A stretch of 8,684 bases of DNA from a virus (taxonomy: Duplodnaviria > Heunggongvirae > Uroviricota > Caudoviricetes): positions 1 to 8,684 of the IMG/VR virus record IMGVR_UViG_2778261453_000015; one strand, 5' to 3'. Below the pieces are notes generated by a model. It worked only from the letters and a program-made list of their open reading frames with translations. It was not told the origin of the DNA and ran no database searches. Below are positions 5,490 to 7,904 of the stretch, piece by piece. A program made the translations under genes and the position numbers. How positions within the stretch are numbered: the stretch's first letter is position 1; each line of letters begins with the position of its first letter.

Positions 5490-5519
5490 AAGAAAAAACA
5501 AAACCCGCCGAAGCGGGTT
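5490..5519 (-). terminator. Strong Rho-independent terminator closing the restriction-modification cassette (minus strand)
   Basis: Minus-strand RNA: 7-bp stem AACCCGC/GCGGGUU with a UUCG tetraloop (5502-5519), then UUUGUUUUUUCU (complement of 5490-5501). About 80 nt downstream of the REase stop. Confidence 0.6.
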
Positions 5520-5597
5520 AGTAAAAATGTACTGAAGGCAATGACATGCCATGGCAGTTAAAATATGACAGACTCTATTCATATAAAGATAGAGATG

Positions 5598-6475
5598 TCA
5601 GACTGCAAGATCCAAGGGAAGATCAGAAATATCCTTTAATCTTTTACCATTAACCATCACGGAAAGCATGTCAGCTGCATCGCTGAGCCCCAGTATTTCA
5701 ACCGCTGATATAAGCTCATAAAGCGCAAAATGATACACGCAATCTATGTCACCAGTACCAAGAGCAATGGACGCCAGACGACTTGGAGTAGGCTCAGCAG
5801 TAACAACCATTACATGAGGCAGATTTCCCTTACGGTTGCGAATAAGGTTTAATGCCTCAGAACGAGCATTCTGGGCCCGGTCGCTTCTTATTGTCCATTT
5901 GCAGGAAATACTTGCGTGTAATATCGGTTTCCCACCATTCGAACTCCTGAGAGCTGACATGCGGGTAACAGAGTCATCCACCAGTAATTCAGGACTGTTG
6001 ATAACTTGATCGCATTCAGGTTCTCTTTCAACAACAATATCTGGTGAAATCGTATAATCACTCCCTAGTGCAGCAGCCAGCTGAGGGTTACTTTTTGCAG
6101 CACTATCCAATGCTATAAGATGGGCATATTGTTCATATTTAGCTATCTCTAATCTGTTTCTCCCAGAAACCTGATGTACATTCCATTTTCCAGGACGTAA
6201 GTGGCTGAGTTTAAAAAAGGTTTTTTTATAAACTCTGCGCAGATACTCTCGAACTGATTACCAGATGTTTGCCCTGCAACACGTTCACCAATCGTTTCAG
6301 CCTGCAAGAAGCGAGCAATTTCTCTTGCTATAGCTTTACTGTTTTTGTTACTGCTATCTGCATTACTAACAACTCCGGCAGTATTAATTGTGAGCGTATT
6401 CAGTAACAATTGGGCATGAAACTCCTTTCTGGCTTCAGCAAAACCAACTATGCTGTCAACCAAATCTCCATTCAT
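5598..6475 (-). pseudogene. Type II restriction endonuclease gene (NgoMIV/Cfr10I-like PD..SxK..E enzyme) split by a frameshift in an A7-CC-T6 homopolymer tract; about 292 aa if repaired
   Basis: N-terminal fragment 6475..6149 (ATG with AGGA Shine-Dalgarno, 108 aa). C-terminal fragment 6257..5598 is open in another frame but has no ATG and no Shine-Dalgarno (the track start at 6110 is TTG). The frames overlap across 6149-6257, and the tract at 6213-6227 is an obvious slip site. The downstream frame carries SPD ...47 residues... SCK ...14 residues... E, the spacing I recall for NgoMIV D140/K187/E201. Confidence 0.55.
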
Positions 6476-6488
6476 TTCCGGATTTCCT

Positions 6489-7607
6489 TCAGGCTGCTTG
6501 ACTATTCTTACTGATTTTATTCTTATGCCGTCCCTGCAAAACTCCATACACATATTGTGCGATTTTTGCCGCAAATAGCGGTGGAACAGCATTCCCGATC
6601 TGCTTTGCAATCTCAGTTTTTGAACCGGTAAAAATGAAATTATCAGGAAAAGACATTAATCTCGCTGCCTCACGATGAGTTATTGGCCGATCCTCTTCCG
6701 GATGCAAATATCGCCCTTTCTCCGGTTTGAAAAACTCAGTACGAATCGTTACTGAAGGTCTGTCCCACCACAGACGCCCAAACAAATCGGTCCCTCCAGA
6801 TTTCTTTTTTAGCCAACACGCCGGGGTTATATCAGGTCTTTTTTTCTGTAAATCGAAACGGTTACCTCCTGGTGGAACCGCTTTATATCGCTCCAGAGAA
6901 ACAGGTGTGGGATTACGCCCAAAATGTAAGTTCAGCGGAGGAAGTTCATTACGAATATCAGTTCCAACAGGAGCTGGCAAGTCACCAATTGCATCACGCG
7001 TACAGACCCATTCTGGCAAAGCGACATCCTTATCAGGGGAACGATGCGTTGGTGCTGGCGGGAACGCCGGAATACTATGCACATCAAAGAGTTCTCGTTT
7101 GATACCGATTGCTATCGTTCGTTTTCTTGTCTGAGGTACTCCATAGTCAGCAGTATTCAACACCATTGGATTAAGCAGAATAAAGCCCATGGATTCAGCT
7201 CTAAACGTAATGTCCGCAAACTCATCGCTTATCAGCAATCCAGGGACATTTTCCATGACGAACATGCAAGCCCTTGAACGCTCAATGATATCCATATAAG
7301 GCTCCCACAATGCTCTTCGGTGATCACCATAACGATTCTTATTCAATAAGCTGAATCCTTGACACGGGGGGCCACCTATGACCACATCAGCCTCAGGAAC
7401 AGCATTACTGGATGTCCACTCCTCAATATTTGCCTGAACTCCATGCAAACCAAAATTGGCATTGTAGGTATTTATAGCTGCAGCATTATTATCAATAGCA
7501 AGGATACTTTCAAAGTGGTCAGACATCTCTCCATGAAGAAAACCATAAGATAATCCACCTGCCCCACAAAAGAGGTCTATCACTCTGAATTTATTTAATT
7601 CTTTCAT
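6489..7607 (-). CDS. DNA (cytosine-5)-methyltransferase, Type II, 372 aa, apparently intact
   Basis: Track ORF. Motif I DLFCGAGGLSYGF, motif IV GGPPCQGFS, motif VI ENVPGL, motif VIII QTRKR, motif X GNAVPP, all in canonical order. Confidence 0.9.
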   Translation of the reverse strand: MKELNKFRVIDLFCGAGGLSYGFLHGEMSDHFESILAIDNNAAAINTYNANFGLHGVQANIEEWTSSNAVPEADVVIGGPPCQGFSLLNKNRYGDHRRALWEPYMDIIERSRACMFVMENVPGLLISDEFADITFRAESMGFILLNPMVLNTADYGVPQTRKRTIAIGIKRELFDVHSIPAFPPAPTHRSPDKDVALPEWVCTRDAIGDLPAPVGTDIRNELPPLNLHFGRNPTPVSLERYKAVPPGGNRFDLQKKRPDITPACWLKKKSGGTDLFGRLWWDRPSVTIRTEFFKPEKGRYLHPEEDRPITHREAARLMSFPDNFIFTGSKTEIAKQIGNAVPPLFAAKIAQYVYGVLQGRHKNKISKNSQAA

Positions 7608-7676
7608 CCGCCCCCATATGCCTCAGATTAATGTTAAGCGTCTTGCAGGACGCGTAATGCTAACTGGGGCTTTTCT

Positions 7677-7712
7677 CTGTCTGCCTTACGGTGGCATGCC
7701 CGAGGCAGACAG
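7677..7712. repeat. 10-bp inverted repeat (CTGTCTGCCT ... AGGCAGACAG) flanking a 16-nt loop that contains GGCATGCC, in the leader upstream of the C5-MTase
   Basis: Direct reading. Potential stem-loop or protein-binding site. No U-run follows on either strand, so it is not a canonical terminator. Confidence 0.35.
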
Positions 7713-7770
7713 CCTCAAGCACCCGCAGCAATTCTACTTAACTCTCGCTTTACAGCAAACCGTTTTCACC

Positions 7771-7792
7771 CGATATGGGAATTCCCATATCG
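7771..7792. repeat. 22-bp perfect palindrome CGATATGGGAATTCCCATATCG (centred on GAATTC) between the 34-aa ORF and the C5-MTase
   Basis: Exactly self-complementary over 22 bp, which is unlikely by chance in 8.7 kb. Lies in the about 190-nt region that must hold the cassette promoter. Candidate operator for a dimeric regulator. Confidence 0.4.
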
Positions 7793-7799
7793 ACACAAA

Positions 7800-7904
7800 T
7801 TAACCACCGCGACGATCAATCAAAAACACAACCAGACAATAAATCGCCATAACAGCCACAACGGCCAGCGCGCCTTCCATTGCCAGCAAAATATCATCCG
7901 ACAT
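7800..7904 (-). CDS. Small hydrophobic protein, 34 aa, predicted single transmembrane helix
   Basis: Not in the ORF track. ATG 7904..7902 with GGAGGG Shine-Dalgarno 4-5 nt upstream, stop TAA 7802..7800. Translation MSDDILLAMEGALAVVAVMAIYCLVVFLIDRRGG has a hydrophobic core and a charged C-terminus. Confidence 0.4.
   Translation of the reverse strand: MSDDILLAMEGALAVVAVMAIYCLVVFLIDRRGG

What the first reader, a model, noticed from the sequence alone, without database searches (positions are those of the whole stretch)
5490..7800. Self-contained Type II RM cassette inserted in the nin region of a lambdoid prophage
The C5-MTase and the split REase sit between a palindrome-rich leader of about 190 nt (7608-7800) and a strong UUCG-tetraloop terminator (5490-5519), which is the architecture of an independently transcribed cargo unit. 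If my memory of the E. coli K-12 Qin prophage order (relB-relE-hokD-rem-ydfU-Q) is right, the same slot upstream of a Rem-like/DUF968 pair carries toxin-antitoxin genes there, suggesting a recurrent cargo hotspot. By manual scan I found no GCCGGC (NgoMIV site) in the window, against about 2 expected by chance, and about 10 RCCGGY sites; this is too weak to establish specificity.
Basis: partly seen in the sequence, partly recalled or inferred. Interest (0 to 1): 0.65.

Follow-up and report, generated by a model that had tools for sequence, protein, structure and literature searches.

The report
Restriction-modification genes grafted into hok/sok
An E. coli prophage carries a NgoMIV-type restriction-modification gene pair that has precisely replaced the toxin gene of a hok/sok addiction locus, so it sits behind that locus's promoter and leader and in front of its terminator, and in this strain the restriction gene is switched off by a one-base loss in a run of A's.

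Summary
An intact C5 methyltransferase gene (7607-6489, minus strand) is followed by a NgoMIV-family endonuclease gene split into two ORFs. GCCGGC occurs 0 times and RCCGGY 10 times, as reported.

The "leader" and the "terminator" do not belong to the cassette. They are the 5' leader with promoter, and the 3' terminator, of a hok/sok type I toxin-antitoxin locus (Rfam RF01794, 67.9 bits). Both occur without the RM genes in thousands of E. coli genomes, with hokD between them. The variable segment is only about 5521-7620. It replaces about 290 nt holding the mok/hok ORFs, the presumed sok promoter and the fold-back element.

The graft is in 60 of 5,426 complete E. coli genomes, always with the same junctions. 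Both genes are under strong purifying selection (dN/dS 0.14 for M, 0.03 for R). The endonuclease is 65.5% identical to NgoMIV, and every catalytic and CCGG-contact residue checked is conserved, so GCCGGC is the predicted site.

The split is an A8-to-A7 length difference. It is polymorphic among 99.98%-identical strains.

The RM system itself is ordinary and already annotated. The swap of a toxin-antitoxin gene for RM genes is a modest, apparently undescribed curiosity.

The parts
7731..7759 (-). hok-type promoter: -35 TTTGCT (7759-7754), 17-nt spacer, -10 TAGAAT (7736-7731). The inferred transcript start is G at 7724.
   Evidence: Read directly from the sequence. The same 42 nt upstream of the leader occur in front of a native hok locus (L265), and other graft variants share their promoter sequence with native hok loci. 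In the native locus L003 the scan calls TTGGCA-17-TAGAAT at the equivalent place. Promoter activity is inferred, not shown.
7621..7724 (-). Remnant of the hok mRNA 5' leader. It holds the 5' hairpin (arms 7723-7703 and 7686-7666), a second hairpin region, and the GAGG Shine-Dalgarno of the mok position (7624-7621).
   Evidence: Rfam RF01794 'sok' match at 7724..7544: 67.9 bits against a gathering score of 59, E 8.6e-14. Only model positions 1 to about 90 align well. The alignment to native hokD loci L003 and L004 is continuous up to ...AATCTGAGGC and then breaks.
5521..7620 (-). The variable cargo segment (about 2.1 kb): 13 nt of 5' sequence, M, a 13-nt spacer, R, and a 77-nt 3' untranslated stretch. 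It replaces about 290 nt of mok/hok coding sequence, the presumed sok promoter and the fold-back element.
   Evidence: Breakpoints come from alignment A2 and the flank searches. The segment has identical junctions and is 96.9-97.5% identical in 60 E. coli genomes and in about 28 IMG/VR loci, all but one with the same junctions. G+C is 0.40-0.46 against 0.53-0.59 in the downstream flank.
6489..7607 (-). C5 cytosine DNA methyltransferase, 372 aa, intact (WP_097921332.1, E. coli).
   Evidence: PF00145 at E 1e-54. Motifs DLFCGAGG, GGPPCQGFS, ENV, QTRKR and GNAVPP are visible in the translation. The exact sequence is in the protein collection, named as E. coli. dN/dS is 0.14 against the common allele.
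6149..6475 (-). N-terminal fragment of the NgoMIV-family endonuclease. It holds 85 native residues, including the Glu70 equivalent, then 23 out-of-frame residues and a stop.
   Evidence: PF09015 positions 1-72. The fragment departs from the intact protein of L143 at residue 86.
6221..6227 (-). A7 tract, the frameshift site. A8 gives the intact gene in sister strains. The common allele has AGAAAAAA.
   Evidence: Alignment A1. L143 and L146 have A8 and an intact gene. The window, L144 and L147 have A7. L124, on the common-allele background, has the same A7 state.
5598..6236 (-). C-terminal part of the endonuclease reading frame. It has no start codon of its own before 6110. It holds the equivalents of Asp140, Lys187, Glu201 and the R-S-D-R motif.
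   Evidence: PF09015 positions 67-275, E 5e-104. Residues were mapped onto NgoMIV.
5492..5519 (-). hok-locus intrinsic terminator: a 7-bp stem, a TTCG loop and a T tract.
   Evidence: Terminator scan. An identical hairpin ends the native hokD loci L003 and L004 and K-12 hokD.
7771..7792 (.). Perfect 22-bp palindrome CGATATGGGAATTCCCATATCG. It is upstream backbone and not part of the RM unit.
   Evidence: It is present upstream of native hok loci in 12 IMG/VR loci.
5148..5420 (-). Conserved 90-aa ORF downstream of the hok terminator. It is backbone and not Rem-like.
   Evidence: No Pfam or PADLOC match. No alignment to K-12 Rem. Its DNA is present in 2,847 E. coli genomes.

Best explanation
A promoterless two-gene type II RM operon sits inside a prophage hok/sok type I toxin-antitoxin locus. 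The operon is a C5 methyltransferase followed by a NgoMIV-type endonuclease, with predicted site GCCGGC. It has replaced the mok/hok reading frames, the presumed sok promoter and the fold-back element.

What remains of hok/sok is its weak constitutive promoter, the first 104 nt of the hok mRNA leader up to the mok Shine-Dalgarno, and the hok terminator.

**Inferred mechanism.** In a lysogen, M and R are transcribed from the hok promoter and terminated at the hok terminator. That would make an expression unit independent of phage repression and insulated from the downstream DUF968-RusA-Q genes. M would methylate GCCGGC and R would cut unmodified GCCGGC in incoming DNA, and the pair would also act as an addiction module.

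**State in this strain.** A one-base shortening of an A tract (A8 to A7) truncates R after residue 85. This separates the Glu70 equivalent from Asp140, Lys187 and Glu201. Here the locus most likely acts only as an orphan m5C methyltransferase.

**Shown:** gene identities, breakpoints, the hok/sok origin of both flanks, the distribution, purifying selection, and the frameshift with its polymorphism.

**Inferred:** promoter use, the GCCGGC specificity, the loss of Sok, and the phenotype.
For: - **Rfam:** RF01794 match above the gathering score on the leader.
- **Breakpoints:** base-level alignment to native hokD loci shows homology ending at ...CTGAGGC (7621) and resuming at TAACCCGC... (about 5521), with the hokD coding sequence between them in relatives.
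- **Flanks without the RM genes:** the leader is in 4,159 genomes and the terminator with the 90-aa ORF in 2,847. The cassette is in only 60.
- **Promoter:** promoter sequences of graft loci are identical to those of native hok loci, in at least 5 variants, all keeping the -10 TAGAAT or TAAAAT.
- **Single event, then spread:** 33 of the 34 close-allele loci examined share identical junctions (the Salmonella locus L108 has a different left flank) across varied upstream neighbours (QueH, DUF551, Ead/DUF4406).
- **No other cargo:** 120 sampled loci with this leader held only hok or this RM pair.
- **Endonuclease:** E 1e-118 and 65.5% identity to NgoMIV (PDB 1FIU). D34, E70, D140, K187, R191-S-D193-R194, E201 and R227 are all conserved. 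Catalytic residue names are from PMC2532715.
- **Selection:** dN/dS is 0.14 for M and 0.034 for R between the two alleles.
- **Frameshift:** A8 with intact R in L143 and L146, against A7 in the window, L144 and L147, at 99.98-100% identity.
- **hok/sok biology:** a weak promoter makes the stable mok-hok mRNA, and Sok overlaps mok (PMC3874152).
Against: - No transcript data exist. The -35 box in the window (TTTGCT) is poor, and the strict promoter scan does not call this promoter in the window.
- Read-through from upstream early phage transcription could also express M and R.
- The M start codon is 13 nt from the GAGG, and an 8-codon out-of-frame upstream ORF overlaps it, so translation signals in this allele look weak.
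- A Salmonella version of the cassette (L108) lacks the hok leader but keeps the hok-type terminator. The order of events is therefore unresolved, including whether the hairpin travelled with the cassette.
- The A7 state could be an assembly error. One database locus (L086) shows a biologically implausible M frameshift in an A tract with R intact.
Confidence: 0.8

Rival explanations
1. One reading: a self-contained mobile RM cassette that brings its own roughly 190-nt leader with promoter and its own terminator, and that has inserted into a recurrent cargo hotspot.
For: M and R do lie between a structured leader and a strong terminator. The region upstream of the leader is highly variable between prophages. 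In Salmonella (L108) the terminator hairpin accompanies the cassette in a context without the hok leader.
Against: The leader and terminator occur together around hokD, without RM genes, in thousands of genomes. The leader is a hok/sok RNA by Rfam. Only about 13 nt upstream of M are specific to the cassette. The 71%-identical outgroup cassette (L110) has an unrelated upstream region. No other cargo was found at these junctions.
Confidence: 0.05
2. The endonuclease is really intact in this strain, and the A7 tract is a homopolymer sequencing or assembly error.
For: The lesion is a length change in a homopolymer. Sister assemblies at 99.98% identity read A8. Another database locus (L086) has an implausible A-tract frameshift in M with R intact.
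Against: A7 is seen in three separate assemblies: GCA_002549675.1, GCA_046054415.1 and a Logan assembly of SRR3977270. It is also seen on another allele background, L124. A7 and A8 runs are normally read reliably by short-read platforms (general knowledge). Some of these assemblies may derive from the same isolate.
Confidence: 0.15
3. The A tract is a contingency (phase-variation) switch that toggles restriction ON (A8) and OFF (A7) while methylation continues.
For: A7 and A8 are polymorphic among nearly identical strains. The same OFF state occurs on a second allele background. In this lineage the tract became uninterrupted (the E84K codon change), whereas the common allele has a G interrupting it.
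Against: Runs of 7-8 A are short for high-frequency slippage in mismatch-repair-proficient E. coli (general knowledge). Only two states have been seen. 32 of the 37 close-allele loci examined (the window's own contig among them) have an intact R, and the common allele lacks the uninterrupted tract. The pattern equally fits one-way decay.
Confidence: 0.12
4. The retained hok leader still acts as a regulator. It would gate M-R translation through leader folding, or through pairing with Sok RNAs made by sibling hok/sok loci elsewhere in the genome.
For: The leader hairpin and the mok Shine-Dalgarno are retained in all graft alleles. The common allele has an in-frame ATG 7 nt after the mok GAGG, and a 374-aa annotation uses it. 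E. coli genomes carry a median of 1 and up to 8 places matching the leader query, which spans the leader and its upstream backbone.
Against: The region where the native sok promoter and the Sok 5' pairing tail map by analogy has been deleted. No plus-strand promoter is called there. The fold-back partner of the 5' end is gone. The predicted fold of the chimeric leader is only modestly more stable than shuffles (z = -2.3). In the O157 allele the outer stem has acquired mismatches.
Confidence: 0.1

Closest known systems
NgoMIV restriction-modification system of Neisseria gonorrhoeae (G^CCGGC; PDB 1FIU and 4ABT)
   Same: The endonuclease is 65.5% identical over 281 residues. All catalytic residues checked (E70, D140, K187, E201) and all DNA-contact residues checked (R191-S-D193-R194, R227, D34) are conserved. 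It is paired with a C5 methyltransferase.
   Different: It is carried by an E. coli lambdoid prophage and embedded in a hok/sok shell. The specificity has not been tested. In the window the gene is frameshifted. No comparison with M.NgoMIV itself was possible.
hok/sok (mok-hok-sok) type I toxin-antitoxin loci, in particular prophage hokD loci of E. coli (Rfam RF01794)
   Same: The promoter, the first 104 nt of the mRNA leader and the terminator are homologous and in the same positions relative to the 90-aa ORF and DUF968 genes.
   Different: There is no hok or mok reading frame, no sok promoter region and no fold-back element. A 2.1-kb RM operon occupies their place. It is therefore a remnant, not a functional toxin-antitoxin locus.
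relBE-hokD arrangement in the E. coli K-12 Qin prophage
   Same: It occupies the same prophage slot upstream of ydfU (DUF968) and Q. It is also a hok locus rearranged by recombination at the boundary between leader and coding sequence.
   Different: In K-12 the leader half was lost and relBE lies upstream of a retained hokD. Here the coding half was lost and the leader was kept. K-12 also has rem inserted after the terminator.
Prophage morons and defence cargo in lambdoid phages
   Same: It is a variable, low-G+C, accessory gene unit bracketed by a promoter and a terminator within an otherwise conserved early region.
   Different: The bracketing signals were not imported with the cargo. They were inherited from the displaced toxin-antitoxin locus.

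Membership tests
NgoMIV-family type II restriction endonuclease (PF09015) | Sequence match to the family profile | tested here: met
   The two fragments match PF09015 positions 1-72 (E 6e-18) and 67-275 (E 5e-104). The intact relative matches PDB 1FIU at E 1e-118 and the PADLOC REase_II model at E 1e-125.
NgoMIV-family type II restriction endonuclease (PF09015) | Catalytic residues Glu70, Asp140, Lys187 and Glu201 (NgoMIV numbering) present | tested here: met
   All are conserved in the reconstructed and sister-strain protein. Residue names are from PMC2532715.
NgoMIV-family type II restriction endonuclease (PF09015) | A single uninterrupted reading frame that encodes an active enzyme | tested here: not met
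   In the window the frame is broken after residue 85 by the A7 tract, which separates E70 from D140, K187 and E201. The frame is intact in 32 of the 37 close-allele loci checked, a count that includes the window's own contig.
NgoMIV-family type II restriction endonuclease (PF09015) | Recognition and cleavage of GCCGGC | not testable with these tools
   This is inferred only, from 65.5% identity and the conserved R-S-D-R, R227 and D34 residues. GCCGGC counts are uninformative because RM-free relatives also have 0.
C5 cytosine DNA methyltransferase (PF00145) | Profile match and conserved motifs I, IV (PCQ), VI (ENV), VIII and X in an intact ORF | tested here: met
   PF00145 at E 1e-54, covering profile positions 1-320 of 324. 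The motifs are visible in the translation. dN/dS is 0.14.
Type II RM operon | Adjacent, co-oriented methyltransferase and endonuclease genes that are conserved as a pair | tested here: met
   M and R are 13 nt apart. The pair is retained in all 60 E. coli genomes and in the 71%-identical outgroup loci L109-L112 and L123.
C-protein-controlled RM systems | A small helix-turn-helix controller gene with a C-box upstream | tested here: not met
   There is no additional ORF with a Pfam match in 5521-7620, and only 13 nt of cassette sequence lie upstream of M.
hok/sok type I toxin-antitoxin locus (RF01794) | hok mRNA leader RNA | tested here: met
   67.9 bits against a gathering score of 59, E 8.6e-14. 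The well-aligned part is model positions 1 to about 90.
hok/sok type I toxin-antitoxin locus (RF01794) | Hok toxin reading frame (about 50 aa) with the overlapping mok frame | tested here: not met
   Both are absent. The alignment to native loci shows the whole coding region replaced.
hok/sok type I toxin-antitoxin locus (RF01794) | sok antisense promoter and the 5' end of Sok | tested here: not met
   The region where they lie in native loci, by analogy with plasmid R1 and from my reading of the native sequence, is deleted. No plus-strand promoter is called at 7540-7625. The scan also fails to call the sok promoter in the native locus, so the deletion is the evidence that counts.
Lambdoid prophage nin-equivalent region | Position between the replication genes and the Q antiterminator, next to rusA | tested here: met
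   L143 context: HTH/DnaC-like replication genes, DUF1627, DUF977, then M-R, the 90-aa ORF, DUF968, RusA, Q, and later holin. Pfam Antiterm and RusA matches are in the window.

The most novel reading that the evidence does not exclude
The hok/sok shell may be more than a passive remnant. On this reading, its promoter, leader hairpins and mok ribosome-binding site were co-opted as the control region of an RM addiction module. Sok RNAs from sibling hok loci could then modulate methyltransferase and endonuclease expression in trans. In addition, the A7/A8 tract in R would work as a reversible ON/OFF switch for restriction. Together these would make a hybrid addiction and defence unit built from parts of two unrelated post-segregational killing systems.
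Probability: 0.1. Interest if true: 0.6.

Novelty: new member of a known kind. Interest (0 to 1): 0.38.

Why it matters
The RM system itself is routine. NCBI's pipeline already annotates it as a NgoMIV-family enzyme plus a cytosine methyltransferase in 60 complete E. coli genomes, about half of them UK O157:H7 isolates.

What is worth keeping is the architecture. It is a base-precise example of one addiction or defence module (RM) displacing another (a type I toxin-antitoxin) while inheriting its promoter, leader and terminator. This shows how promoterless cargo can become an insulated, lysogen-expressed unit inside a prophage early region.

It also gives a practical warning. Structured "leaders" and terminators around cargo genes may be relics of the previous occupant, not part of the cargo.

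For typing and methylome work, it predicts a strain-variable m5C mark at GCCGGC in some STEC lineages. It also predicts strain-to-strain differences in restriction, set by a single A-tract length.

Tried and rejected
- **Rem-like identity of the 90-aa ORF:** BLASTP against K-12 Rem gave no alignment. In K-12, rem is an extra insert after the hok terminator.
- **GCCGGC avoidance as evidence for specificity:** rejected. RM-free relatives (L003, L004, K-12 Qin) also have 0 sites, and RM-bearing loci have 0-3.
- **Cassette in sequenced phages or plasmids:** megablast found nothing in INPHARED or PLSDB.
- **A donor outside Enterobacteriaceae:** the best endonuclease relatives among GTDB species representatives are only 77-78% identical, in Halopseudomonas, Pseudomonas and Pigmentiphaga. 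The nearest methyltransferase relatives outside the E. coli and Salmonella cluster are 80% identical, in Klebsiella, Pantoea and Cronobacter. No donor was identified.
- **Other cargo grafted at the same hok junctions:** none in 120 sampled IMG/VR loci.
- **A sok promoter in the window:** none was called. However, the scan also misses it in the native locus, so the argument rests on the deletion.
- **Fold of the chimeric leader:** it reproduces the first hok hairpin, but its stability against shuffles is unremarkable (z = -2.3).
- **Literature:** three full-text searches found no description of an RM pair replacing hok or of this E. coli NgoMIV-like system.
- **Salmonella context:** I used L108 instead. 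Which context is ancestral stays unresolved.
- **tRNA genes in the window:** none.
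Full report
**What is in the window**

All genes run on the minus strand. Reading in the direction of transcription, the order is:

- a DUF551 gene (8492-8022);
- a 34-aa hydrophobic ORF (7904-7800);
- a 190-nt non-coding stretch;
- a C5 methyltransferase gene (7607-6489; PF00145, E 1e-54);
- two ORFs that both match the NgoMIV endonuclease family PF09015, at profile positions 1-72 and 67-275;
- a strong intrinsic terminator (stem 5519-5502 with a TTCG loop and a T tract);
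- a 90-aa ORF, DUF968, RusA, a Q-type antiterminator, a TrmB-like ORF, an N6/N4 methyltransferase, and a ParE/HigB-like toxin with an HTH partner.

GCCGGC occurs 0 times (2.3-3.1 expected) and RCCGGY 10 times. The window is the whole contig NOCO01000073.1 of E. coli assembly GCA_002549675.1, reversed.

**The endonuclease split**

The 292-aa gene is intact in relatives. The common E. coli allele reads TATAGAAAAAACC where the window reads TATAAAAAAACC.

Strains that are 99.98% identical to the window over all 8.7 kb (L143 = GCA_012247705.1; L146) read TATAAAAAAAACC. That is A8, with an intact gene and an E84K change. The window, L144 and L147 have A7. The split is therefore a one-base length change in a homopolymer, polymorphic among near-clonal strains.

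The same A7 state occurs on the common-allele background in L124.

The frameshift truncates the protein after residue 85. It separates the Glu70 equivalent from the Asp140, Lys187 and Glu201 equivalents (residue roles from PMC2532715).

**What the flanks really are**

- **Downstream flank.** A search with the downstream flank shows that 2,847 of 5,426 complete E. coli genomes share the 90-aa ORF region. In cassette-free genomes the homology runs exactly up to window 5520, so it includes the terminator.
- **Upstream flank.** A search with the upstream flank shows that the "leader", about 7620-7766, is present at 7,982 places in 4,159 genomes.
- **Cassette.** The cassette alone is in only 60 genomes, one chromosomal copy each.
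- **Rfam.** Window 7724-7544 matches the hok/sok family RF01794 above its gathering score: 67.9 against 59 bits, E 8.6e-14.
- **Annotation in relatives.** In cassette-free relatives, the annotated gene between leader and terminator is hokD.

A base-level alignment shows two things. Homology to native hokD loci runs from the promoter through ...TTAACATTAATCTGAGGC and stops at 7621. That point is directly after the GAGG that precedes the first ATG of native loci, which is the mok initiation region by analogy with plasmid R1 (my own knowledge plus PMC3874152). Homology resumes at TAACCCGCTTCGGCGGG, near 5521.

About 290 nt are therefore replaced by a 2.1-kb segment that begins only 13 nt before the M start codon. 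The replaced stretch held the mok/hok frames, the region where the sok promoter lies in native loci, and the 3' element complementary to the 5' end (CCTCAACGCACCC against GGGTGCTTGAGG).

The cassette brings no promoter. The -10 box TAGAAT (7736-7731), the -35 box TTTGCT (7759-7754) and the inferred start at G7724 are those of hok. The window's exact 42-nt promoter sequence occurs in front of a native hok locus. Other graft alleles carry other native hok promoter variants.

The perfect 22-bp palindrome at 7771-7792 lies upstream of the promoter. It is also found upstream of native hok loci. It belongs to the upstream backbone.

**History and spread**

In 33 of the 34 close-allele loci examined the junctions are identical. 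These loci are two E. coli chromosomal regions, about 28 IMG/VR prophage contigs, and the window's own lineage. The exception is the Salmonella locus L108, described below. Upstream neighbours differ: QueH, the small ORF with DUF551, or Ead/DUF4406. That pattern fits one graft event followed by spread through homologous recombination between lambdoid prophages.

The window's allele differs by 2.5% from the common allele. Nearly all differences are synonymous, with dN/dS of 0.14 for M and 0.034 for R. Both genes have therefore been maintained by selection since the graft.

In a sample of 120 IMG/VR loci that carry the 3' end of this leader, the breakdown was:

| Occupant | Loci |
|---|---|
| hok terminator 287-292 nt downstream (native hok) | 84 |
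| RM graft | 4 |
| Native mok-like sequence continuing downstream | the rest |

No third kind of cargo was seen.

That gene order is confirmed. The exact junction, however, is not a recurrent insertion hotspot.

K-12 itself shows the mirror-image rearrangement. Its hokD retains the coding sequence and terminator but has lost the leader to relBE, and rem is an extra insert after the terminator. The 90-aa ORF has no similarity to Rem.

A Salmonella enterica version of the cassette (L108) has a methyltransferase identical to a protein found on 110 Salmonella contigs. It lacks the hok leader but keeps the hok-type terminator hairpin. Which arrangement came first is unresolved. A 71%-identical outgroup cassette (L110) has an unrelated upstream region.

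**Specificity**

The intact protein is 65.5% identical to NgoMIV (G^CCGGC; PDB 1FIU; E 1e-118). D34, E70, D140, K187, R191-S-D193-R194, E201 and R227 are all conserved. Cfr10I, Bse634I and SgrAI were not even detected at E < 0.01. GCCGGC is therefore the best prediction, but it remains an inference.

Site avoidance cannot test it, because RM-free relatives also lack GCCGGC.

**Likely function**

hok promoters are weak and constitutive, and the hok terminator is efficient. This is established hok/sok biology, summarised in PMC3874152. The graft therefore most likely gives M-R a repressor-independent, insulated transcription unit in lysogens.

In the common allele, an in-frame ATG lies 7 nt after the mok GAGG. 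Some annotations use it, giving a 374-aa product. This suggests that the mok ribosome-binding site was borrowed as well.

In the window's allele that ATG is lost. An 8-codon out-of-frame upstream ORF overlaps the M start.

With R frameshifted, this strain most likely keeps only the methyltransferase activity.

**Verdict**

The RM pair is a real, variable prophage cargo of a well-known family, and it is already annotated in public genomes. The "self-contained cassette" reading is wrong in its key architectural claim. The precise swap of RM genes for hok inside a hok/sok shell, and the A-tract polymorphism in R, are modestly interesting. As far as three literature searches show, they are undescribed. 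They do not amount to a new kind of system.

Noticed in passing
window 2893-3713 (minus strand), lesion at about 3545-3546: The Q-type antiterminator gene is also frameshifted. Relatives read GGGAAAATGGGCATT and encode 273 aa. The window reads GGGAAAATGGCATT, giving 59-aa and 214-aa ORFs. The 99.98%-identical L143 shares this state, so the prophage may be defective for late gene activation.
   Followed up: partly
window 886-1149 and 451-825 (minus strand): A ParE/HigB-like toxin gene (PF05016 in the gene calls) lies next to an HTH_3/HTH_31 gene, downstream of the N6 methyltransferase. It is probably a type II toxin-antitoxin pair and a second addiction-type module in the same 8.7 kb.
   Followed up: no
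window 1253-2317 (minus strand): A 354-aa N6/N4 DNA methyltransferase (PF01555, E 1e-44; PADLOC MTase_II, E 1e-158) has no adjacent endonuclease. It looks like an orphan prophage methyltransferase, so this prophage region would encode two DNA methyltransferases.
   Followed up: no
window 7771-7792: A perfect 22-bp palindrome, CGATATGGGAATTCCCATATCG, contains an EcoRI site and lies just after the stop codon of a 34-aa hydrophobic ORF (7904-7800). It is also conserved upstream of native hok loci in 12 IMG/VR loci. Its function is unknown; it could be a protein-binding site or a hairpin without a T tract.
   Followed up: partly
L086 (IMGVR_UViG_2526164664_000010), M gene codon 255: The methyltransferase has an A7-to-A6 frameshift while the endonuclease is intact. 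That combination should be lethal, so it is either a sequencing error or R is silent there.
   Followed up: no
L108 2745-2868 and 4950-5330 (Salmonella enterica prophage): The same cassette (97% identical) has a non-hok upstream region (possible promoter TTGCTG-16-TAAATT) but keeps the hok-type terminator hairpin. An extra stretch of about 300 nt with a small ORF follows before the conserved junction motif.
   Followed up: partly
L107 4950-5010: In this graft allele a 37-nt insertion interrupts the terminator hairpin (CTTCGGCGCTGAGGGATCCCCGTAAATCAGCGTTTCGGCGGG).
   Followed up: no
window 5440-5475; L108 5310-5345; L110 4920-4960: A conserved motif, CAGCCTGAACAACTG-CACCTGCTGCG, lies just upstream of the first gene after the cargo. 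It recurs downstream of unrelated cargo in other prophages, even where the following gene differs (a LexA-like gene in L110). It may be a module boundary or a recombination linker.
   Followed up: no
L148 (K-12 Qin) 4306-4651: The 346-nt unannotated gap between rem and ydfU in K-12 contains a sequence about 72% identical to the start of the 90-aa ORF. This suggests an unannotated or decayed homologue.
   Followed up: no
window 7591-7617 (minus strand): An 8-codon upstream ORF (ATG GGG GCG GAT GAA AGA ATT AAA TAA) starts 3 nt after the mok GAGG and overlaps the M start codon out of frame. The common E. coli allele also has an in-frame ATG two codons upstream of the annotated M start.
   Followed up: partly
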